The position numbers were made by a program, and so were the translations under genes. 64,000 nt of DNA from a virus, in the IMG/VR virus record IMGVR_UViG_3300045988_101018, positions 1 to 64,000 of that record, one strand, 5' to 3'. The notes under the pieces were generated by a model, which was not told the DNA's origin, made no database searches, and saw nothing but the letters and a program-made list of their open reading frames with translations. How positions within the stretch are numbered: position 1 is the stretch's first letter; every line of letters begins with the position of its first letter. Below, piece by piece: positions 2,403 through 13,066 of the stretch.

Positions 2403-5303
2403 GTGCTCGATAAGCAGATAGACATCTACTCCCTAGACACTGGGAACTTTTATGACAATAGAGAGTCCTCCCTTCACTGGCTTAATCACAAGCTGAGAAG
2501 TGAAAGGAACCAACTGCTGAATGGCGCTGTTATCAAAGGCAATGATGGCAAGACAAAGAAAACAATAGTCGGTGTCCGAAACATTGAGTCTAAGTTTGAG
2601 TCTTACGGTGTTGACAAAGATGGTCTTGCATCTATTGCTAAGGACGAATATGATTTTTCTTTGTTTGGAGATGATAGCAAAGAGCTGAGTGAGCTTGGTT
2701 GCGAGTATCGCCGATTGAAGAATCTGGTATCTCTTAAAAACACAAAGATCAACGAAACTAAGGAAAGGCTACTTACCCTTCTGTCTAATAAGGTTGAATC
2801 GAATATTGCGTCAGACGGTAGACACCACACAAGAATGCTTCGTGATAACCAAGTATCAGAGAAGAACATCATTTCTGTATTCGATTCATATTTCACAAGA
2901 ACCATCGGTGCCAAGCCAGATGAGCTATGCGAAGACTTCATGGTTATTCAGGTCTATTATTTCGATATGATTAAAGACTTGATTTACAATGGTTTCGAAT
3001 ACAATGGCGAGAAGTATATTTACTTCACTTCTTCTGCTGGGCAGATTCGCACAAAGAAATGTGTATTCGTCAAAGAGTCAACTTGGAAAAAGCATGAGAA
3101 GACGATTATGTGCGGGTTGACGATTGACGACATCAATGCACATGGCGGTAACAATCCCAATAAGCATCTTGCTTATATGGCGCTTGCAAATTCTGCAACC
3201 GATGTATGGAATGAGTTCGACATTGACAAGACTATCGTTATCGATGATTTTGAGACTGATGTTATTGGTACATATGATTTAATTGACGATGCGGACTACT
3301 CCATCAAGAGGATAACTGGCAATGTGCCTATCCCCCATACTGATGGAGCGGGAATGATGTTGCCTTGTCTTGGTAGAAATCGTATGGTTAGGCTACCGTG
3401 GGTAAAGGGTCTTCTTGGCGCTTTTGATTTTAAGAAGTTCATCGAAGTGAATGAATGCTCTCCTGTTATCAAGGATATATATGGCAAAGAACATAACATC
3501 GTTGATGAGGATATTCAAATTATCTTTACCAAATCTCAGTTTAAGATGAACAAATATTATGAATCTTGGGATCAATATAAGGAGATGTTCAAGAGATATG
3601 GGTGTACAGCTGGCGTAACTAATGTCGAGGAAGAGCGCATCAAAGACGCTACTATCAATTATCAGATGCTTCAGACATTGACTGATGTTACCGATGATGA
3701 GCTTGCAGATATTGCCTACCAGTCAACAAATAAGCTTGAGAATTTATGCGGTTCCGTTGAGAGTATCAAGGATGTGTTCGGTGCAACGCCGTATAATACA
3801 AATAAGACCGCTTTTCAAAAGGCTATCGACCTTTACCCAGCTTTGTTGAATGATGAATATGCAAAGTCTCAGTTGAGAGATATCAAAGATAGCATGGTCA
3901 AAAGGTTCAAGGCCGGAAAGCTGAAGGTTCATGGCAAGTATACATTTTTACTTCCAGACTTCTATGCCGCTTGCGAGCATTGGTTTATGGGTAAAGATAA
4001 TCCTGACGGCCTGCTTGAAGACGGAGAGGTGTTCTGTTGGTTGTTTAGAAAAGATGAAAAGCTTGATTGCCTTCGCTCTCCTCATCTTTTCATGGAACAT
4101 GCTATTAGAAAAAATGTTGCCTGCTATGCGTATGGAGATAAAAAGAATAGTGTTAGAGAGTGGTTTGGCACAGATGCCGTATACACAAGCTGCAAGGACA
4201 TGATTAGTAAGATTCTTCAATTTGATGTTGATGGGGACAAATCGTTAGTTGTTGCAGATAAGACTCTTATTGCAGTTGCGGAAAGAAATCTTAAGAAGTT
4301 TGACATTGTGCCGCTTTACTACAATATGCGAAAAGCTGAGCCAGTACATCTTGATAACGCTGCAATCTACGGTGGACTTCATGCTGCATTTGTTGGTGGA
4401 AATATCGGAATCTACAGCAATAACATCTCTAAGATTTGGAACAGCGAGGTGTTCATATCTGGTACAGACGAAGATAAGAGACGTGCAATTGATGTAATTA
4501 GACTTCTTTGCATGGAGAATAATTTTGTAATCGACTATGCTAAAACGTTGTATAAACCAGAAAGACCAGATTACGAAAAGGAGCTGATAACTGGTTTTAC
4601 TAAAGACCCTCTCCCTCATTTCTTTGTATATGCGAAGGATAAAAAGCTGCATCAGGTATCTGATATCAACAACAGTCTCGTCAATAAGCTTAATGACATT
4701 ATTCCGAATCCTAGAATCAATTGCAGAAAGCTTGGCCTTGATAAGATTGATTATGCACTTATGATGAGAGATGTTAGAACGGAATGCAGGATATCGTTTA
4801 CAGACAGAGGTAAGATTATCAAGGAAGAAACCGATCCGTTGATTGTTAAGTATTGTGAACTGAATAAGAAGTATCAGTTTGCATTGAACGATGCGGTTAA
4901 GGGTTTTTCTTCTGACGATATGTCAAAATCTAAGATGCGCCGCGATTTAAAGTATAGAAAGATTTCTAAGGAGATATATGAAGAGCTTTCTTCGTTTGGA
5001 TACGATGATTTTAAGATTGTCGATATTCTCGTGAAGTTTCTTTACGGTATCAAGGGTGGCAAAAATAAGATGGCTCTTTGGCTGTGTTATGGAGATATCG
5101 TTTATGATAATCTTTCTCGTAATGTAAAGCGAGAGACGCGAGACGTGCAATGCGTGGACTGTGGAGAATGGTTTGAAGTCAGTATCAAGGATACAAAAAC
5201 ATGTAGATGTTATGAATGTACGCAAGAGCACAAGCGCGAACTTGCCAGATTAAGAAAGAAAAAACAGCGCGAAACTCAAAAGTCACGCGACCAGAATATT
5301 TAA
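2403..5303 (+). CDS. 966-aa protein with a DxDGD motif (FDVDGDK) and a C-terminal Cys4 zinc ribbon. Could be a polymerase, a primase or a YonO-like RNA polymerase. Function unresolved.
   Basis: GTG start with RBS GGAGGTGG. No P-loop (Walker A) found. Motifs 'FDIDKT' and 'FDVDGDKS'. C-terminal CVDCGEW...CRCYEC. Confidence 0.3.
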   Translation: MLDKQIDIYSLDTGNFYDNRESSLHWLNHKLRSERNQLLNGAVIKGNDGKTKKTIVGVRNIESKFESYGVDKDGLASIAKDEYDFSLFGDDSKELSELGCEYRRLKNLVSLKNTKINETKERLLTLLSNKVESNIASDGRHHTRMLRDNQVSEKNIISVFDSYFTRTIGAKPDELCEDFMVIQVYYFDMIKDLIYNGFEYNGEKYIYFTSSAGQIRTKKCVFVKESTWKKHEKTIMCGLTIDDINAHGGNNPNKHLAYMALANSATDVWNEFDIDKTIVIDDFETDVIGTYDLIDDADYSIKRITGNVPIPHTDGAGMMLPCLGRNRMVRLPWVKGLLGAFDFKKFIEVNECSPVIKDIYGKEHNIVDEDIQIIFTKSQFKMNKYYESWDQYKEMFKRYGCTAGVTNVEEERIKDATINYQMLQTLTDVTDDELADIAYQSTNKLENLCGSVESIKDVFGATPYNTNKTAFQKAIDLYPALLNDEYAKSQLRDIKDSMVKRFKAGKLKVHGKYTFLLPDFYAACEHWFMGKDNPDGLLEDGEVFCWLFRKDEKLDCLRSPHLFMEHAIRKNVACYAYGDKKNSVREWFGTDAVYTSCKDMISKILQFDVDGDKSLVVADKTLIAVAERNLKKFDIVPLYYNMRKAEPVHLDNAAIYGGLHAAFVGGNIGIYSNNISKIWNSEVFISGTDEDKRRAIDVIRLLCMENNFVIDYAKTLYKPERPDYEKELITGFTKDPLPHFFVYAKDKKLHQVSDINNSLVNKLNDIIPNPRINCRKLGLDKIDYALMMRDVRTECRISFTDRGKIIKEETDPLIVKYCELNKKYQFALNDAVKGFSSDDMSKSKMRRDLKYRKISKEIYEELSSFGYDDFKIVDILVKFLYGIKGGKNKMALWLCYGDIVYDNLSRNVKRETRDVQCVDCGEWFEVSIKDTKTCRCYECTQEHKRELARLRKKKQRETQKSRDQNI

Positions 5304-7398: not shown

Positions 7399-8412
7399 AT
7401 GGCGGGAAGAACAGCTAGAAAAAATGATGACTCCACTTCGACACTGCATTGTGCTTGTTGTGGTAAGGAGCTTAAGTCAAAAGATTTTTATAAATCAAAT
7501 AGTGACTTATATGCTTCATATGGAAAGATGCCGTGGTGCAAAGAATGCATTAATAAAATTTATTATAATTATTTAAACGTATATAAAACCAACGGATATG
7601 CAAACCCAGAAAAAAAGGCCGTTGAGCGAATATGCATGTTTTTAGATGTATATTTTTGCGATGATGCATATAATGCCACTGTTAAAAGAATGGAAGATGG
7701 CGATTTAACATGCTCTCTCATATCTTCTTATATCTCGATTTCACCACTTAGACAGTACAGAGGTGGTTATGATAGAACGTTAGAAGAAAGATATAATGAA
7801 GCAAAGTTTAATAATAAGCCCATATCTATATATTCAGATGACGATTCTGATATGAACGAAACCATAGACAAGGCGATAAAATTATTTGGCAATGGTTTCG
7901 ATAATGATGATTATATCTTTCTTTACAATGAATATTGTGACTGGACTACTAGACACGAGTGCAATACAAAAGCCCAAGAAGAGGTTTTTAAGCAACTGTG
8001 TTTTAATCAGCTTGAGTTGTTAAAGGCGACCAGGGCAAAGCAGGATACAAAGGATTTGACGGCTACATTCCAGAAGCTTCTTGACACAGCTAAATTGCAG
8101 CCGAAACAAAATTCTGGTGATGCCACATCTGATAGCCAAACATTTGGCACACTTATTGATAAGTGGGAAAACACAAGGCCGATTCCAGAGCCAGAAGGTG
8201 ATTTGAAAGATGTTGATAAAATAGGTCTTTACATTGACACATTTTTTCGTGGACATCTTGCAAAGATGATGGGTTTAAAGAACGGGCTTTCAAAACTCTA
8301 TGACAGATTTATGAAAAAGTATACCGTTGAAAAGCCAGAGTATGACGATGATGAAGACAACGAAGCTTTGTTTGATGCCATTTTTGGTGACACCGTTATG
8401 GATGATGATTAG
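7399..8412 (+). CDS. Hypothetical protein with an N-terminal Cys4 zinc ribbon and an acidic C-terminus. Possible small terminase by position only.
   Basis: CACCGK...CKEC near the N-terminus. C-terminal 'YDDDEDNE...DDD'. Sits immediately upstream of the terminase. Confidence 0.25.
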   Translation: MAGRTARKNDDSTSTLHCACCGKELKSKDFYKSNSDLYASYGKMPWCKECINKIYYNYLNVYKTNGYANPEKKAVERICMFLDVYFCDDAYNATVKRMEDGDLTCSLISSYISISPLRQYRGGYDRTLEERYNEAKFNNKPISIYSDDDSDMNETIDKAIKLFGNGFDNDDYIFLYNEYCDWTTRHECNTKAQEEVFKQLCFNQLELLKATRAKQDTKDLTATFQKLLDTAKLQPKQNSGDATSDSQTFGTLIDKWENTRPIPEPEGDLKDVDKIGLYIDTFFRGHLAKMMGLKNGLSKLYDRFMKKYTVEKPEYDDDEDNEALFDAIFGDTVMDDD

Positions 8413-8423
8413 GCGGTGTTCAT

Positions 8424-8648
8424 ATGACGAATAAAGTTAATAGAAAAAAATCAGAAAAAGAGATTGCTAACGAAAAATCAGAACGCATTATGAATGGCAT
8501 TGCAGTGTGGGCTGGTTTTTACAGGGCTAATCCCCATCGCTTTGTTGTTGATTATTTAAATATTAAATTAAAACTATTTCAAAAGATATTGCTGTACGCG
8601 ATGATGCATAACAATTTTTTCATGTACATTGCCGCGCGTGGACAGGGT
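8424..8648 (+). CDS. Terminase large subunit, exon 1. Ends ...IAARGQG.
   Basis: Translation stops 7 codons past 'ARGQG'. Splicing to 9934 yields the Walker A motif ARGQGKT. Confidence 0.6.
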
Positions 8649-9933
8649 GAACTGTCTTGCCCTGTATAAATCGGGTAAAATCGGTGAAGTCTAAAATTGT
8701 TTTAACCAGAAGATAGATTTGGAAGTCATGAGCCAAATTGATAAGAGCGGATTCGAACACCGCTCTTCTTCTGTTTAATATAAATGTTCGTCCTTTGTTC
8801 GGAGGATAAAAATGACAAAAAGACTAGATATTGAACATGTTAGAAATCTTGTACATGAGATAGCTGGATACACGCTGTTAGATAATGTATATACTAATAA
8901 TAATACGAAGATGACGGCAGTTGATAAAGATGGCTATAAATATTATTTTACACTATCTAATTTAAAATACGCTAAGTCTGCTAGAATGGTAGACAAGTCA
9001 AATCCATATTCAATAGATAATATTAAATTGTGGTTGAAAAATCACGGTATACCGTATGAACTTTTGTCAACAGAATATAACGGCAATGGTTCAAAAAATA
9101 GAAATAAACAATTGTTGAAGTTACGATGTGATAATGGTCATATTTTTTATAGAACGTGGAATGATATTAGAACAGATGGTGTTAGATGTGAAGATTGTGC
9201 GAGAAGATATGTGAACAAAGAACAGTTTTTATCTTTTATTTCCGATAAATATGGAGACGAATACGAAATAATTGGTGAATATGTTAATAGTCAAACTAAA
9301 ATACAAATAAAGCATAATAAGTGCGGAAATGTTTTCTATGCTACGCCAAATTCATTGGCTAATGGGCATGGTTGTCCAAATTCTTCTTGCTGTAAAAAGC
9401 ATGGAGAAGATCATTACAGATATAATAAAAATTTATCTGATGAGGAAAGATATTCTGATAGAAAGTCTAAAAAAGAATATCGTGATTGGCGGTCTTCTGT
9501 GTATGCCGCTTATAATTTTACATGTGATATTTGTGGGCATAAATCTTCAAAAGACAATAAAATTGTTGCACATCATATAGAATCATATGATGCAAATGAA
9601 GATTTAAGATATGATATTTCAAATGGCGTTGCGCTATGTGAATCATGTCACAGAGACTTTCATCATAAGTTTGGATATGGACATAATACAAGAAAACAAT
9701 ATGAACAATATAAAGACAATTATGATAATACCGAGGTAATCCATCAGATTGCGTAAGGCTGGTGGACACCGTAGAGCGTACTAGGTGAATAAATATAATC
9801 CTAGCAAGAGTACCCGACAATTTATTTATAAATTGAAAATGTACGCCAAACTGGATTGGAATAAACCAATCGATGTAAATGGAGGAAACTCCCAGAGCAA
9901 CAGATAAAAAACTGTTGGATAATAATGATTTTG
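8649..9933 (+). mobile_element. Putative group I intron carrying an HNH homing endonuclease
   Basis: The 5' exon ends in U, which forms a U-G wobble pair. The exon sequence CAGGGU can pair with the intronic guide sequence GCCCUG at 8659..8664 (helix P1). The intron ends in G at 9933 (omegaG). The internal ORF has its own RBS. Confidence 0.55.
8812..9756 (+). CDS. HNH homing endonuclease encoded inside the intron
   Basis: C-terminal HNH motif 'HHIESYD...NGVALCESCHRDFHHKFG' plus zinc-binding Cys clusters. Confidence 0.7.
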   Translation: MTKRLDIEHVRNLVHEIAGYTLLDNVYTNNNTKMTAVDKDGYKYYFTLSNLKYAKSARMVDKSNPYSIDNIKLWLKNHGIPYELLSTEYNGNGSKNRNKQLLKLRCDNGHIFYRTWNDIRTDGVRCEDCARRYVNKEQFLSFISDKYGDEYEIIGEYVNSQTKIQIKHNKCGNVFYATPNSLANGHGCPNSSCCKKHGEDHYRYNKNLSDEERYSDRKSKKEYRDWRSSVYAAYNFTCDICGHKSSKDNKIVAHHIESYDANEDLRYDISNGVALCESCHRDFHHKFGYGHNTRKQYEQYKDNYDNTEVIHQIA

Positions 9934-11490
9934 AAGACATGGTTAACCGCCTTGTTTTGCGTTGTTAGATGCATCCTTTTTCCCAAGACAAAAATATGCA
10001 TTGCATCTGCGACAAGGCCGCAGGCGAATGAGGTTTTGTTGAAGATTACAGATGATTTTATGAAGAACTATGGTTTTGGATCTGAAAATCTTAGACGAGA
10101 AATTACATATGCTGCCGTTGGCGCAAATAAAGCTGTGATTGATTTTGCAAATGGCTCATGGATTAGGGTTGTTACCGCTTCTGATTCTGGTCGTGGTGCT
10201 CGTGCTAATATTTTGTTAGTCGATGAGTTTAGAATGGTTGACCTAGATACTATTAACACGGTATTGAGACGATTCCTTACAGCTCCAAGACAGCCGAATT
10301 ATTTAAATAATCCAAAATACGCACATCTTCTAGAACGAAATAAAGAGTTCTATATGAGTTCGGCGTGGTATAAAAACCACTGGTCTTTTGAAAAGGCGAA
10401 GGCTTATACGGTAAATATGCTTGATGATACTAAGAAGTATTTTATCTGCGGACTCCCATATCAGGTTTCTGTGAAAGAAGGTTTGTTATCTCGTGAACAA
10501 ATCGAAGATGAGATGTCTGAAACCGACTTTGATGAAGTCAAGTGGAGTATGGAGATGGATTGTTTATTCTTCGGTGATACTGAAGGCGCTTTCTTCTCAT
10601 TTGATGACATCGGATGCAGAAGAACTTTGCAAACAGCAGTCTACCCTCCTTCGTTTATAAACAATAAGACATATAAGATACCAGAATTGGCTACAAATGA
10701 AAGACGCATCATGTCTGTAGATGTTGCACTTATGGCTTCTAATAAACATAGAAATGATGCCAGTGCAATTATAATCAATAGCGCAATTCCTACAAATAAT
10801 AATAATTATGTGTCTAATATCATATATCTTGAGAACCATGAGGGGCTTAATACAGATGAACTGGCGCTTGTGATTCGTAGATTATTTAGACTATATAAAT
10901 GCACCGACCTTGTGGTCGATACGAATGGCAGCGGTCTGGGCGTATTTGATGCTCTTATCAGAGATATGGTAGACCCAGAAACAGGCGAGCTATATGGCGC
11001 TCTGTCTTGTTGCAATGATAAAGATATGGCGGCTAGATGTAAAGTAGCTAATGCGCCAGAAGTTATTTGGTCTATCAAAGCAAATGCTTCTTTTAACAAT
11101 GAGATTTGTATTTTGCTTAGAAGCGGATTTAAACAGGGTAAGATTAATCTTCTTGTTTCTGAGTTTGAAGCAGAAGAAATCTTAAAAGACAAAATAAAAG
11201 GCTATGCAAAGATGCAGCCTTTTGAGCAATTACAATACAAGATGCCGTATATACAAACGACATTATTGATATACGAGCTTACAAAGCTTGAGCACGAGAT
11301 AAAGGGAACTAATATCAAAATTATAGAAAAGACTGGTATGAGAAAAGACCGCTACAGTTCATTGGCATATAATTATTGGGTTCAGTGTCAGCTTGAGCGG
11401 GAAATTCTTCAAAAGCCGCAGGTTTCTTTTGATATTAAATCCTATGCAAAACAAATGAAAAAGTTAAACAAAAGACCAAATATGTACTAA
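9934..11490 (+). CDS. Terminase large subunit, exon 2
   Basis: Begins KTWLTALF, completing the Walker A motif. Walker B-like 'ANILLVDEF'. Terminase-sized protein upstream of the portal. Confidence 0.6.
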   Translation, partial: KTWLTALFCVVRCILFPKTKICIASATRPQANEVLLKITDDFMKNYGFGSENLRREITYAAVGANKAVIDFANGSWIRVVTASDSGRGARANILLVDEFRMVDLDTINTVLRRFLTAPRQPNYLNNPKYAHLLERNKEFYMSSAWYKNHWSFEKAKAYTVNMLDDTKKYFICGLPYQVSVKEGLLSREQIEDEMSETDFDEVKWSMEMDCLFFGDTEGAFFSFDDIGCRRTLQTAVYPPSFINNKTYKIPELATNERRIMSVDVALMASNKHRNDASAIIINSAIPTNNNNYVSNIIYLENHEGLNTDELALVIRRLFRLYKCTDLVVDTNGSGLGVFDALIRDMVDPETGELYGALSCCNDKDMAARCKVANAPEVIWSIKANASFNNEICILLRSGFKQGKINLLVSEFEAEEILKDKIKGYAKMQPFEQLQYKMPYIQTTLLIYELTKLEHEIKGTNIKIIEKTGMRKDRYSSLAYNYWVQCQLEREILQKPQVSFDIKSYAKQMKKLNKRPNMY

Positions 11491-11527
11491 TGGTTTTATG
11501 CGCATATTAAGGAGGTGAATCGGTTTA

Positions 11528-13066
11528 ATGGCTAATGATAAACTAGATTCTGAATATGCGTCTGAATATACAAAAGAAGATTATCTTCGTGACGAAGAAT
11601 CATTTAAGAAATCAGAAAAAGATGGAAAAGTTGATTGGAGCGCATTTAGCAGATTGATGCGCAACGACTTGTTTCTAAATACAGAGATTCTTGAAACTGG
11701 ATGTATTGGCGATATTAAATTAAGCGATATTGATACCGCAATCAAACATCCGAAAAAATATTGGCGTTTGCTTCTTGATGCATCGTCTTACCTCATGCGT
11801 GTATCCCCGCACTATTATAGACTGAATAGCCTTTATAGCAATATGGCTCTATTCTGTTGGTGGGTTGATTTATATGATGTCCAGAATACCGCAAAGACAG
11901 ATACGATTAAGAAACAATATTCTAAGCTTGCGGCAAAGCTCGAAGATATGAATTTAAAACATGAGTTTGCAAAAATAATGAGATATCTACCGTATCAAGA
12001 TATTTATTGCGGACTTGTTGTTGAAAGTTCGACAGATTTCTTCTTTCTTAAGATAGATTATAGGATATGTCAGCTATATCAGGTTCAAGATGGTTTATAT
12101 AATTTTAAAATTGACCTTGGCAAGATAAAGCAAAGTGAGTTAGCTGCGTATCCAGATTATGTACAGCAAGCTTATCTGGATTATATTGATGGCAAGGCAT
12201 CTTTTTGGTATAAGCCGCCAGCAGATAAGCAGATTTGCATTAAGCTGAATAGTCAATGGACATATCCATATCCAATGCTCATAGGAATGATTAAGGACAT
12301 TATAGATCTTGATACTTATAAGAAGTTAAAGTTGCAGTCTGCTAGAACCGATAACTATAAGGCGATTGCGGTTAAAGTTCCTATTGATGAGACTACGGTA
12401 GATAAGCCACTCCTTACCCCTGAAACGCTTAGTGTGTTTGCTGAAATTAACAGAGAGAGTATGAACGATGATATTGGACTGATTCATACTCTTGGTTCAG
12501 ATGGTGAAGCAATAAGCTTTAAGGATTCTAGCAACACAAGAAATAATGTTTCTGATGCAATTGATGAGCTTTATAATTCATCTGGCGAGTCTAAAGAGTT
12601 GTTTAACGGTTCGTCTTCTGGTACGGCTGTAACAATGTCCGTTGAGAACGATGCTGGTTTCGTATACGGAGTATACAGACAGCTTGAGCGATGGACTAAT
12701 AGATATATAAAGCTTAGAAATTATAATAAAAAAGCTTTCAAATTTTATTTTTATCTTCTTGATATAACTATCTTTAACAGAGATAACGTAAGCAAGAGAT
12801 ATAAGGACGCTGTAACGCTTGGCGTGTCTTGTATCGATAAATGGCTTGCATCTCTTGATATGACTCCTTCTAGAACGTTGGGGTCTTTTATTTTGCATAA
12901 TGATATCTTTGATTTCCATAATAACTTTGTTCCTCTTGCTACCTCCTATACTGAACCTGCTCAGGTTACAGAGAAAGAGGTTGGTAGACCAACCGCAGAA
13001 GATCGCGGTGAAACGCTTGACGTTGAAGGCGAAAAGACGCGCGATGGCGAGAAGAATGATAGATAA
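11528..13066 (+). CDS. Portal protein
   Basis: 512 aa, immediately after the terminase. RBS AGGAGGTG. Confidence 0.5.
   Translation: MANDKLDSEYASEYTKEDYLRDEESFKKSEKDGKVDWSAFSRLMRNDLFLNTEILETGCIGDIKLSDIDTAIKHPKKYWRLLLDASSYLMRVSPHYYRLNSLYSNMALFCWWVDLYDVQNTAKTDTIKKQYSKLAAKLEDMNLKHEFAKIMRYLPYQDIYCGLVVESSTDFFFLKIDYRICQLYQVQDGLYNFKIDLGKIKQSELAAYPDYVQQAYLDYIDGKASFWYKPPADKQICIKLNSQWTYPYPMLIGMIKDIIDLDTYKKLKLQSARTDNYKAIAVKVPIDETTVDKPLLTPETLSVFAEINRESMNDDIGLIHTLGSDGEAISFKDSSNTRNNVSDAIDELYNSSGESKELFNGSSSGTAVTMSVENDAGFVYGVYRQLERWTNRYIKLRNYNKKAFKFYFYLLDITIFNRDNVSKRYKDAVTLGVSCIDKWLASLDMTPSRTLGSFILHNDIFDFHNNFVPLATSYTEPAQVTEKEVGRPTAEDRGETLDVEGEKTRDGEKNDR

What the first reader, a model, noticed from the sequence alone, without database searches (positions are those of the whole stretch)
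8424..11490. Terminase large-subunit gene interrupted by a group I intron with an HNH homing endonuclease
The ORF at 8424 ends seven codons after 'IAARGQG'. The ORF at 9925 begins '..KTWLTALF'. Joining 8648 to 9934 creates the Walker A motif ARGQGKT and a full-length terminase. The boundaries obey group I rules. The 5' exon ends in U. The exon sequence CAGGGU can pair with GCCCUG, 10 nt into the intron, to form helix P1 with the U-G wobble. The intron ends in G. The 1285-nt insert carries an independently translated HNH endonuclease.
Basis: partly seen in the sequence, partly recalled or inferred. Interest (0 to 1): 0.6.

Follow-up and report, generated by a model that had tools for sequence, protein, structure and literature searches.

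The report
Self-splicing intron splitting a phage terminase gene
The DNA-packaging motor gene of an SPbeta-like phage is split inside its ATP-binding motif by a 1285-base group I intron carrying its own HNH homing endonuclease gene, which is a correct call but a well-known kind of phage parasite.

Summary
ORF 8424-8669 and ORF 9925-11490 are the two exons of one terminase large-subunit gene. Joining 8648 to 9934 restores the Walker A motif GQGKT. The joined protein is 58% identical to SPbeta YonF and 84-86% identical to uninterrupted homologues that read straight through the junction.

The 1285-nt insert (8649-9933) has a complete group I architecture:
- P1 with a U·G wobble, and a contiguous P10.
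- The P3/P7 pseudoknot, P4-P6, P7.1, P8, a three-way P9, P9.1 and a terminal G.

Rfam 15 finds nothing, even at E<=10. However, the 3' core is homologous to more than 120 phage introns, including the two in the AR9 gyrA gene, which its record annotates as a three-piece join. On 50 family members, 98% of cells pair and 29 of 39 pairs show compensatory changes. A covariance model built without the window hits 9700-9852 at 128 bits (E about 1e-32).

The HNH gene (8812-9756, with its own GGAGG ribosome-binding site) sits in an insert in P5. Its last 41 nt overlap the P5a, P4, P6 and P6a strands.

Splicing and homing are inferred, not shown. This is a new member of a known kind, of modest interest.

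The parts
8424..8648 (+). Terminase large subunit, exon 1 (75 codons, ends ..IAARGQG; last base U8648)
8649..9933 (+). Group I intron, 1285 nt
8642..8665 (+). P1 hairpin: exon strand 8642-8648 pairs with guide strand 8659-8665 (U8648·G8659). Within the loop, 8654-8658 (GUCUU) is the P10 guide for exon 2 bases 9934-9938.
8671..8677 (+). P3 5' strand UCGGGUA, pairing with 9811-9817. There is no P2: only AUAAA (8666-8670) separates P1 from P3.
   Evidence: (helices 1-2: 6 of 7 pairs with changes on both sides)
8678..8700 (+). J3/4 AAA (8678-8680); P4 5' strand UCGGU (8681-8685); J4/5 GAAG; P5 5' UC (8690-8691); P5a 5' AAUUGU (8695-8700)
8701..8811 (+). 5' part of the P5 insert: two hairpins (8717-8738 and 8743-8767, the latter GC-rich and followed by a U-rich run), then the Shine-Dalgarno GGAGG at 8801-8805. 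The element GAUAGAUUNGGAAGUCNNGAGCC is shared only with the Clostridium phage vB_CpeS-1181 TerL intron. Its role is unknown.
   Evidence: (weak second hit)
8812..9756 (+). HNH homing endonuclease gene (314 aa): N-terminal Cys-rich repeat region (PHROG 559) plus a C-terminal HNH domain (residues 238-285)
9716..9734 (+). P5a 3' ACAAUU (9716-9721); P5 3' GA (9724-9725); J5/4 UAAU (9726-9729); P4 3' ACCGA (9730-9734). All lie inside the end of the HNH ORF.
9735..9770 (+). P6 (GGU 9735-9737 with ACC 9768-9770) and P6a (9741-9747 with 9759-9765). The HNH stop codon UAA 9754-9756 lies in the P6a loop.
9776..9846 (+). P7 (GCGUA 9776-9780 with UACGC 9842-9846), enclosing P7.1 (9781-9785 with 9800-9804, loop UGAAUAAAUAUAAU), CAAGAG, the P3 3' strand (9811-9817), P8 (9818-9825 with 9828-9835) and J8/7 (9836-9841)
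9851..9917 (+). P9 three-way junction (P9 9851-9853 with 9893-9895; P9a 9854-9859 with 9866-9871; P9b 9881-9884 with 9889-9892, GAAA loop) and P9.1 (9898-9903 with 9912-9917)
9918..9933 (+). 3' tail GAUAAUAAUGAUUUUG ending in the terminal G (omega G, 9933)
9934..11490 (+). Terminase large subunit, exon 2 (starts KTWLTALF..; the first 5 nt form P10)

Best explanation
The window carries the packaging module of an SPbeta-like phage or prophage from a gut Firmicute. Its terminase large-subunit gene (yonF-type) is interrupted between the G and K codons of the Walker A motif by a mobile group I intron.

**Shown here by sequence, homology and covariation**
- The intron RNA can form P1 (U·G at the 5' splice site) and P10 from one continuous internal guide sequence.
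- It has a canonical core: the P3/P7 pseudoknot, a P4-P5-P6 domain with J3/4 = AAA, P7.1, P8, P9 and P9.1, and a terminal G.

**Inferred from the established group I mechanism**
- An external guanosine bound at P7 attacks after U8648.
- The freed exon 1 3'-OH then attacks after G9933.
- This ligates the exons into an mRNA for a 593-aa terminase with an intact P-loop.

**The endonuclease**
- The intron carries an HNH endonuclease gene in an insert in P5, with its own ribosome-binding site.
- By analogy with other intron-encoded HNH enzymes, it would cut or nick intron-less terminase alleles of co-infecting phages near the GQG|KT codons. Repair would then copy the intron in (homing).
- The last 41 nt of the ORF are the 3' strands of P5a and P4, the 5' strand of P6, and the 5' strand and loop of P6a. 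Translation of the endonuclease and folding of the ribozyme are therefore expected to be mutually exclusive on one RNA molecule.
For: **Gene identity and junction**
- The joined protein matches Terminase_6N from profile position 1, and TerL_ATPase.
- It gives a single-piece tblastn alignment across the junction to SPbeta YonF and about 130 other phages.
- Uninterrupted homologues at 84-86% identity read ..RGQGKT.. at the DNA level. L129 reads CGTGGACAGGGC-AAAACTTGG, against the window's CGTGGACAGGGT|AAGACATGG.
- Gene order matches SPbeta yonJ-yonG-yonF-yonE.

**Ribozyme**
- The chance rate of the P1 plus P10 arrangement is 2e-4.
- The 3' 177 nt match unannotated gaps inside split genes of unrelated phages, including AR9 gyrA, whose CDS is annotated as a join.
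- The motif from P7 to P3' occurs in at least 120 IMG/VR contigs.
- Core covariation on 50 sequences: 98.1% of cells paired, against 33-45% when partners are slid; 29 of 39 pairs have changes on both sides; 0 of 500 shuffles reach the observed values.
- The 3' domain on 14 sequences: 99.6% paired, 15 of 19 pairs with changes on both sides.
- P7 is fixed by the search pattern, but it covaries (GCGUA/UACGC against GCAUA/UAUGC) in AR9, phiR1-37, phi127 and L132.
- A covariance model built from 34 relatives without the window hits 9700-9852 at 128.3 bits (E 1.1e-32). It hits the true 5' strands at 8670-8769 at E 0.016.
- Unconstrained minimum-free-energy folds recover the same helices.

**Endonuclease**
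- Pfam HNH scores above its threshold.
- PHROG 559 'HNH endonuclease' matches at 4.5e-46. That PHROG is reported inside TerL introns of Bastillevirinae (PMC11878797).

**Site as a homing hotspot**
- Mammaliicoccus phage phi127 has an intron at the identical G|K site with a LAGLIDADG gene.
- L093, L132 and L152 have family introns 2 codons upstream.
Against: - Rfam 15 reports no group I hit in the window at gathering score. It reports none in 8550-10050 at E<=10.
- No transcript data exist, so splicing, endonuclease activity and homing are all inferred.
- No bulged nucleotide is evident in P7, and P2 is absent.
- P7 itself could not be tested within the 50-sequence set, because the search pattern fixed its 5' strand.
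- The family alignment was seeded with a pattern taken from the window, so similarity in P7-P7.1-CAAGAG is by construction. The covariation elsewhere is not.
Confidence: 0.9

Rival explanations
1. The HNH gene is a free-standing homing endonuclease that has split the terminase into two separately translated polypeptides (8424-8669 and 9925-11490). These would assemble without RNA splicing, as in some HEG-split phage genes.
For: Both flanking ORFs are open. ORF 9925 has an in-frame ATG three codons before the junction. PHROGs holds separate families for the N-terminal and C-terminal halves of this terminase type (phrog_15503 and phrog_26582). Rfam finds no intron.
Against: The split would separate GQG from KT inside the P-loop. 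Exon 1 would carry 6 foreign residues. The flanks of the HNH gene are a covariation-supported group I core with P1 and P10 placed exactly at the reading-frame junction.
Confidence: 0.03
2. It is a group I intron by descent but no longer splices, making it a decaying element in a defective prophage whose terminase is dead.
For: No expression data exist. P2 is absent. The P5 insert is large (about 1 kb) and the ORF overlaps core strands, which could hinder folding.
Against: Every core helix pairs perfectly in the window sequence, which scores 128 bits against the family model. The guide sequence matches both exons. Both exons and the HNH ORF are intact. Neighbouring packaging genes are intact.
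Confidence: 0.06
3. The insert is another kind of intervening element, such as a group II intron, an intein or an insertion sequence.
For: The only support is a chance-level Rfam match to a group II D1-D4 model inside the HNH ORF (15 bits, E 2.1, against a gathering score of 34.5).
Against: There is no reverse transcriptase or domain V. The insert is not in frame, since a stop follows 6 codons after the junction, so it is not an intein. There are no terminal inverted repeats or transposase. The group I core is demonstrated.
Confidence: 0.01

Closest known systems
Group I introns in terminase large-subunit genes of Bacillus Bastillevirinae phages (PMC11878797), with PHROG 559 endonucleases
   Same: The host gene class (TerL) is the same, and the host range is Firmicute phages. 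The introns have IA-like cores interrupted by a long loop carrying a homing endonuclease. The endonuclease PHROG (559) is shared for the N-terminal region.
   Different: The terminase lineage differs (SPbeta yonF-type). The PHROG 559 proteins reported there carry a VSR-type nuclease domain, whereas the window protein ends in an HNH domain. The insertion here is inside the Walker A codons. I did not compare ribozyme sequences with that paper's set.
Clostridium phage vB_CpeS-1181 split TerL (MW478292, locus L004)
   Same: It is the closest ribozyme found: 75% identity over the 3' 169 nt. It has the same P9 three-way junction, the same P5 location for the endonuclease insert and the same conserved element upstream of the ORF. 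The endonucleases share the N-terminal Cys-rich repeats.
   Different: The insertion site in TerL differs (about residue 225). It has a P2 hairpin. Its endonuclease has no Pfam HNH domain and matches 'homing endonuclease' phrog_9084 instead. The record annotates two TerL CDSs and no intron.
Mammaliicoccus phage phi127 / phi116 SPbeta-like TerL (PV389080, locus L001)
   Same: The terminase family is the same and the insertion point is identical (..RGLG|KS.., U before and G at the end). The P3-P9 core and 3' tail are related.
   Different: It carries a LAGLIDADG endonuclease (Pfam 1.8e-15) placed about 50 nt after the 5' splice site rather than in P5. Its P7 is GCAUA/UAUGC and its P9 is a simple hairpin.
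Bacillus phage AR9 / PBS1 gyrA introns and Yersinia phage phiR1-37 gyrA
   Same: They have the same 3' domain (P7.1 hairpin, P3', P8, P9 three-way junction, P9.1, tail) at 75-77% identity. The AR9 record annotates the gyrA CDS as a three-piece join.
   Different: The P4-P6 region has a different sequence and a different layout. The host gene also differs.
Classical phage IA2 introns (T4 td, nrdB and nrdD; SPO1 DNA polymerase with the HNH enzyme I-HmuI; Twort orf142). This comparison is from my own knowledge.
   Same: They are self-splicing group I introns in essential phage genes, with optional endonuclease genes in peripheral loops. They have an extra pairing after P7. The Twort-like 3' end (..GAAC-P9-GAAG-P9.1-..AAUUG) is shared with many family members.
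   Different: Similarity to the Rfam group I model is too low to detect. There is only one hairpin (P7.1) between P7 and P3', and it has a 14-nt loop that is invariant in the pattern-selected set. The window member has no P2. The subgroup assignment was not tested, because GISSD models were unavailable.

Membership tests
Group I intron | The 5' exon ends in U, which forms a U·G wobble with the internal guide sequence (P1) | tested here: met
   U8648·G8659 closes a 7-bp P1 (8642-8648 with 8659-8665)
Group I intron | The intron ends in G (omega G), and the guide sequence also pairs with the 3' exon (P10) | tested here: met
   G9933 is the last intron base. GUCUU 8654-8658, contiguous with the P1 guide, pairs with AAGAC 9934-9938. 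The joint chance rate is 2e-4.
Group I intron | A conserved core with the P3/P7 pseudoknot and P8 | tested here: met
   P3 spans the whole P4-P6 domain and the 1-kb insert. P3 has 6 of 7 pairs, and P8 5 of 5 pairs, with changes on both sides in 50 sequences. P7 covaries only in more distant relatives.
Group I intron | A P4-P5-P6 domain with an A-rich J3/4 and J6/7 | tested here: met
   J3/4 is AAA. P4, P5, P6 and P6a all covary. Compact ORF-less relatives settled the assignment.
Group I intron | A guanosine-binding site in P7 (a specific G-C pair, usually next to a bulge) | tested here: inconclusive
   P7 has G-C pairs (G9776-C9846, G9778-C9844), but no bulged base is evident. The geometry cannot be tested from sequence.
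Group I intron | A match to the curated covariance model (Rfam RF00028) | tested here: not met
   There is no hit at gathering score or at E<=10. The same model also misses AR9 and the other relatives. A family-specific model scores 128 bits. This is a classifier, not a mechanistic requirement.
Group I intron | Guanosine-dependent self-splicing | not testable with these tools
   This needs in vitro transcription with GTP, or RT-PCR.
Subgroup IA (IA2-like) | Extra pairings P7.1 and P7.2 adjacent to P7, and usually a P2 | tested here: inconclusive
   One covarying hairpin (P7.1, 5 of 5 pairs) lies between P7 and P3'. There is no P7.2 and, in the window, no P2. The definition is recalled from memory and no GISSD subgroup models were run.
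HNH homing endonuclease | An HNH (beta-beta-alpha-metal) nuclease motif | tested here: met
   Pfam PF01844 scores 26.7 bits against a cut-off of 21.4 on residues 238-285. Several HNH PHROGs match. There is a weak match to PDB 5h0m, an HNH endonuclease.
HNH homing endonuclease | Encoded inside a self-splicing intron, with intron-less target alleles in related genomes | tested here: met
   The ORF lies in the P5 insert. Intron-less alleles L128, L129, L130 and L144 have a conserved GQG-KT site.
HNH homing endonuclease | Cleaves or nicks the intron-less allele near the insertion site | not testable with these tools
   This needs an in vitro cleavage assay.
Terminase large subunit (SPbeta YonF type) | An N-terminal ATPase with Walker A and B motifs, a C-terminal nuclease, and a position next to the portal gene | tested here: met
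   Pfam Terminase_6N and TerL_ATPase match the joined protein, with GQGKT restored and LLVDEF present. It is 58% identical to YonF. The portal gene (phrog_2739) follows at 11528.

The most novel reading that the evidence does not exclude
The intron may belong to a large, coherent class of phage group I introns that the Rfam model cannot see. If so, this class would have several distinctive properties.

- It has a single P7.1 hairpin between P7 and P3', whose loop UGAAUAAAUAUAAU was fixed by the search pattern and is therefore untested.
- One ribozyme chassis hosts at least four endonuclease families: HNH, a PHROG 559 / phrog_9084 type with no Pfam nuclease domain, LAGLIDADG and GIY-YIG.
- These endonuclease genes sit in at least three different positions: just after the 5' splice site before P3, in P5, and in P8.
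- The class repeatedly targets the G|K[ST] codons of P-loop ATPases.

If this class is undescribed as such, it would be a new subgroup. It would also explain many 'split' phage genes in current annotations.
Probability: 0.3. Interest if true: 0.45.

Novelty: new member of a known kind. Interest (0 to 1): 0.3.

Why it matters
**Practical value.** The two terminase ORFs should be annotated as one spliced gene. The same correction applies to several deposited phage records that annotate no intron at the corresponding gene:
- vB_CpeS-1181, which lists two 'terminase large subunit' CDSs.
- phi127 and phi116.
- phiR1-37 gyrA.

The standard Rfam screen would miss all of them. The family model or the 35-nt motif used here (25 specified bases) finds them easily.

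**Biological value.** The case illustrates that the most conserved codons of an essential motor, the P-loop, are a contested homing site. Closely related terminases carry related introns at G|K, at RG|xGK and near Walker B, each with a different endonuclease. None of this changes how group I introns or homing are understood.

Tried and rejected
**Rfam searches**
- Rfam at gathering score over the whole window, and at E<=10 over 8550-10050, gave only chance-level matches.
- Rfam on five related loci also found no intron.

**Similarity searches that gave little**
- Megablast of 8300-11600 against phage records found no match, so the phage itself is not in that collection.
- blastn with the 5' 182 nt of the insert gave only short, marginal hits.

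**Hand models I abandoned**
- My first model paired CGGUG (8682-8686) with CACCG (9767-9771). That gave a non-canonical three-way junction without P6. I rejected it once compact ORF-less relatives showed the canonical P4 (UCGGU/ACCGA) and P6 (GGU/ACC) with covariation.
- An early idea that GAGUAC (9808-9813) was the P7 3' strand was also rejected. It overlaps the P3 3' strand, and the apparent match in phi127 was coincidental.

**Other checks**
- I looked for the phi127 guide sequence (a complement of AUUAGGU) and did not find a convincing one.
- The promoter and terminator scan of 8300-10000 showed nothing above shuffled expectation. The hairpin at 8743-8767 was not called.
- The weak second covariance-model hit (8670-8769) raised the idea of a degenerate duplicated core in the P5 insert. 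Most of its score comes from the genuine 5' strands, so I do not claim this.
Full report
**1. Observation**

- ORF 8424-8669 encodes 81 aa ending ..FMYIAARGQG-ELSCPV*.
- ORF 9925-11490 starts MIL-KTWLTALFCVVRC...
- Between them lies ORF 8812-9756 (314 aa). GGAGG at 8801-8805 precedes it, 6 nt before the ATG.
- Joining T8648 to A9934 keeps the frame and creates GQGKT.
- The insert 8649-9933 is 1285 nt, begins after a U and ends in G.
- Exon bases ACAGGGU (8642-8648) pair with GCCCUGU (8659-8665), with U8648·G8659.

The 5 nt immediately upstream of that guide strand (GUCUU, 8654-8658) are complementary to the first 5 nt of exon 2 (AAGAC, 9934-9938). One continuous internal guide sequence therefore aligns both exons, forming P1 and P10.

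In a simulation over random T/G position pairs in this window, a P1 of at least 7 bp with a U·G wobble plus a contiguous P10 of at least 5 bp occurred 39 times in 200,000.

**2. The two flanking ORFs are one terminase gene**

- Pfam Terminase_6N matches exon 2 alone from profile position 10 (E 5.4e-5). It matches the joined protein from profile position 1 (E 4.7e-8), and TerL_ATPase then also matches.
- tblastn of the joined N-terminal 307 aa finds 150 phage records. In 134 of them a single place covers at least 80% of the query. The best are SPbeta-group phages (YonF, 58% identity), aligned in one piece across the junction.
- YonF reads ..YLASRGQGKTWLTSVYC...
- A scan of bacterial genomes and MAGs found uninterrupted homologues at 84-86% identity in gut Clostridia and Bacilli MAGs (L128, L129, L130, L144).
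- At the DNA level L129 reads TTTTTCATGTACATTGCTTCTCGTGGACAGGGC-AAAACTTGGCTC. The window exons read TTTTTCATGTACATTGCCGCGCGTGGACAGGGT|AAGACATGGTTA.
- These are intron-less alleles. The alternative that such terminases naturally end at ARGQG is therefore excluded.
- The neighbouring genes reproduce the SPbeta order yonJ-yonG-yonF-yonE: exonuclease phrog_284, phrog_3314, the split TerL, then portal phrog_2739.

**3. Rfam is negative, but that is a property of Rfam**

- cmscan against Rfam 15 gave no hit in the window at gathering thresholds.
- In 8550-10050 at E<=10 it gave only chance-level matches, none to a group I model.
- However, the same search on five related loci found no intron either. 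One of these was the Bacillus phage AR9 gyrA region, whose CDS is deposited as a three-piece join.
- A recent survey notes that phage 'IA2' introns are heterogeneous, and that the Rfam seed does not cover several subgroups (PMC11878797).

**4. Homology to other phage introns**

blastn with the 3' 189 nt of the insert found 69-82% identical stretches lying in unannotated gaps inside split genes of unrelated phages:
- Clostridium phage vB_CpeS-1181, between two CDSs both called terminase large subunit.
- AR9 and PBS1 gyrA.
- Yersinia phiR1-37 gyrA, which is split by g328.
- Staphylococcus phage ROSA.
- crAss-like phages.

Mammaliicoccus phages phi127 and phi116 have SPbeta-like terminases. They are interrupted at the very same G|K position (..ASRGLG|KSFLSAIY..) by an element with a related core but a LAGLIDADG gene.

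**5. Secondary structure**

Many family members have a compact, ORF-less P4-P6 region. These resolved an ambiguity in my first hand model.

| Element | Sequence and window coordinates |
|---|---|
| P1 | 8642-8648 with 8659-8665 |
| P2 | Absent; only AUAAA follows P1 |
| P3 | UCGGGUA 8671-8677 with UACCCGA 9811-9817 |
| J3/4 | AAA |
| P4 | UCGGU 8681-8685 with ACCGA 9730-9734 |
| J4/5 | GAAG |
| P5 | UC with GA |
| P5a | AAUUGU 8695-8700 with ACAAUU 9716-9721; closes the ~1-kb insert |
| J5/4 | UAAU |
| P6 | GGU 9735-9737 with ACC 9768-9770 |
| P6a | 9741-9747 with 9759-9765 |
| J6/7 | GUAGA |
| P7 | GCGUA 9776-9780 with UACGC 9842-9846 |
| P7.1 | CUAGG with CCUAG; loop UGAAUAAAUAUAAU |
| Linker | CAAGAG, followed by the P3 3' strand |
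| P8 | 9818-9825 with 9828-9835 |
| J8/7 | AAAAUG |
| P9 | Three-way junction (P9, P9a, P9b with a GAAA loop), 9851-9895 |
| P9.1 | 9898-9917 |
| Tail | GAUAAUAAUGAUUUUG, ending in G9933 |

**6. Tests of that structure**

*Core covariation.* The alignment held 50 sequences: the window with the P5 insert removed, L004, and 48 IMG/VR members (alignment A1).

| Measure | Result |
|---|---|
| Cells forming standard pairs | 98.1% |
| Same, with partners slid by 1-3 columns | 33-45% |
| Pairs with changes on both sides | 29 of 39 |
| Covariation score, observed against shuffled | 0.646 against 0.185 |
| Shuffles reaching the observed values | 0 of 500 |

- P3 pairs across the whole P4-P6 domain and, in the window, across the endonuclease gene. 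Six of its 7 pairs have changes on both sides.
- P7 does not vary in this set, because the search pattern fixed its 5' strand.
- In AR9, phiR1-37, phi127 and L132, P7 is GCAUA/UAUGC rather than GCGUA/UACGC. That is one compensatory exchange.

*3' domain.* On 14 sequences, 99.6% of cells pair and 15 of 19 pairs have changes on both sides.

*Independent covariance model.* I built the model from 34 IMG/VR members only, excluding the window and L004.
- It hits window 9700-9852 at 128.3 bits (E 1.1e-32).
- It also hits 8670-8769 at 16.2 bits (E 0.016). That region holds the true 5' strands of P3, P4 and P5.
- Nothing else in the 64 kb matches.

*Thermodynamic folds.*
- The unconstrained minimum-free-energy fold of the ORF-deleted construct recovers P1, P3, P4, P5, P5a, P6, P6a, P7.1, P8, P9a, P9b and P9.1.
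- The 3' half folded alone recovers P7 instead of P3 (z = -2.27). This is expected for a pseudoknot.

*Caveat.* The family was collected with a motif taken from the window, so similarity in P7, the P7.1 loop and CAAGAG is by construction. The covariation in P3, P4, P5, P6, P6a, the P7.1 stem, P8 and P9 is independent of that.

**7. The endonuclease**

- The 314-aa ORF passes Pfam HNH (residues 238-285).
- It matches PHROG 559 'HNH endonuclease' over residues 1-220 (E 4.5e-46), and many HNH PHROGs over its C-terminus.
- Its nearest relatives in phage records are 25-39% identical proteins annotated as HNH endonucleases, in Bacillus and Staphylococcus phages.
- PHROG 559 proteins are reported inside TerL introns of Bastillevirinae (PMC11878797).
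- The ORF begins in the P5 insert and runs through the 3' strands of P5a and P4. It continues through the 5' strands of P6 and P6a and stops in the P6a loop (UAA 9754-9756). Its last 41 nt are therefore ribozyme core.
[quoted passage not shown] I infer the same conflict here; it is not shown.

**8. Mechanism**

*Shown:* the anatomy, the homology, the covariation, and the existence of intron-less alleles.

*Inferred from the established group I pathway:*
- Exogenous G attacks after U8648.
- The exon 1 3'-OH then attacks after G9933.
- The ligated mRNA encodes a 593-aa terminase with an intact P-loop.

*Inferred by analogy with intron-encoded HNH enzymes:* the protein nicks or cuts intron-less terminase alleles of co-infecting relatives near the GQG|KT codons, and recombinational repair copies the intron in.

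**9. Rival explanations**

| Rival | Why it is unlikely | Confidence |
|---|---|---|
| A free-standing endonuclease gene that leaves the terminase as two polypeptides | It would cut the P-loop between G and K, and it ignores the ribozyme | 0.03 |
| An intron that no longer splices | It cannot be excluded without RNA data, but every helix, both exons, the guide sequence and the ORF are intact | 0.06 |
| A group II intron, an intein or an insertion sequence | Excluded by content | 0.01 |

**10. Comparison with known systems, and novelty**

- Group I introns with homing endonucleases in phage terminase, polymerase and ribonucleotide reductase genes are well documented (PMC3984707; PMC11878797).
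- This is therefore a new member of a known kind, in a phage that is not in the phage-record collection searched here.

Points of modest interest:
- The insertion is inside the Walker A codons. Closely related terminases carry related introns at G|K (the window, phi127), at RG|xGK (L093, L132, L152) and near Walker B (L151), each with a different endonuclease.
- The ribozyme family is large and invisible to Rfam.
- The same chassis carries HNH, a PHROG 559 / phrog_9084 type with no Pfam nuclease domain, LAGLIDADG and GIY-YIG genes. They sit just after the 5' splice site before P3, in P5, or in P8.

Whether this family is already delineated as a subgroup was not established here.

**11. Verdict**

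- Observation: confirmed.
- Interpretation: supported.
- Interest: 0.3.

Noticed in passing
L128 about 3090-3100 and L130 (genome contigs relatives of the terminase): The two closest intron-less terminase homologues (Clostridia and Bacilli fecal MAG contigs) carry an in-frame TAG (..YRH*QNPQRF.., CAT TAG CAA). Other relatives, such as L129, read ..FYRCNPHRF.. at that point. This could be TAG recoding in these phages, a programmed event or an error. The window's own terminase has no such stop.
   Followed up: partly
window 8712-8767; L004 1568-1640: An element in the P5 insert upstream of the endonuclease gene is conserved only between the window and the Clostridium phage vB_CpeS-1181 TerL intron. 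It consists of GAUAGAUUNGGAAGUCNNGAGCC-NAAUU followed by a GC-rich hairpin and a U-rich run. The family covariance model gives a weak hit over 8670-8769. Its function is unknown; it could be a regulatory structure or part of a mobile endonuclease cassette.
   Followed up: partly
IMG/VR loci L028, L033, L034, L036, L037, L050, L066, L089, L090, L096 (3' exon starts): By eye, many family members have 3' exons beginning AAR-ACN, AAR-TCN or AAR-AGY (Lys-Thr or Lys-Ser). This suggests that G|K[ST] of P-loop ATPases is a recurrent target of this intron family. I neither quantified this nor identified the host genes.
   Followed up: no
L117 1153-2130: A member of the same ribozyme family interrupts a ribonucleotide reductase gene (Pfam Ribonuc_red_lgC on the downstream exon). 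It carries a GIY-YIG endonuclease gene in the P8 loop, so one ribozyme chassis hosts several endonuclease families at different positions.
   Followed up: partly
L004 1668-2447 compared with window 8812-9756: The endonucleases of the two closest introns share only N-terminal Cys-rich repeats (about 34% identity over 64 aa). The C-termini differ: HNH in the window, and a non-HNH nuclease-like region in L004 (phrog_9084 'homing endonuclease', no Pfam hit). This looks like domain swapping on a common DNA-binding module.
   Followed up: partly
L151 about 1990-2000 onward; L132 1-410; L152 2730-3010: Other SPbeta-type terminase genes in gut MAGs carry introns of this family at other sites: near Walker B (L151) and two codons upstream of the window's site (L132, L152, and also L093). 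L132's terminase is 88% identical to the window's, yet it has a different intron variant and a different endonuclease.
   Followed up: partly
L005 (AR9) 2047 and 2501; L007 (phiR1-37); L004; L001: Rfam 15 misses all these introns, including both introns in the AR9 gyrA gene, which is annotated as a join. Several deposited records annotate no intron at the corresponding gene: vB_CpeS-1181 TerL (two CDSs both called terminase large subunit), phi127 TerL and phiR1-37 gyrA.
   Followed up: yes
L001 297-414 (Mammaliicoccus phage phi127): A strong Rfam match to 'drum RNA' (RF02958, 77 bits) sits among three tRNA genes upstream of the phi127 packaging module. It is unrelated to the finding.
   Followed up: no
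window 7399-8412: The gene upstream of the terminase occupies the position of SPbeta yonG and matches phrog_3314 (function unknown). It also has a weak N-terminal match to an 'endonuclease VII' PHROG (2.2e-7). It may be the small terminase or another DNA-recognition partner.
   Followed up: no
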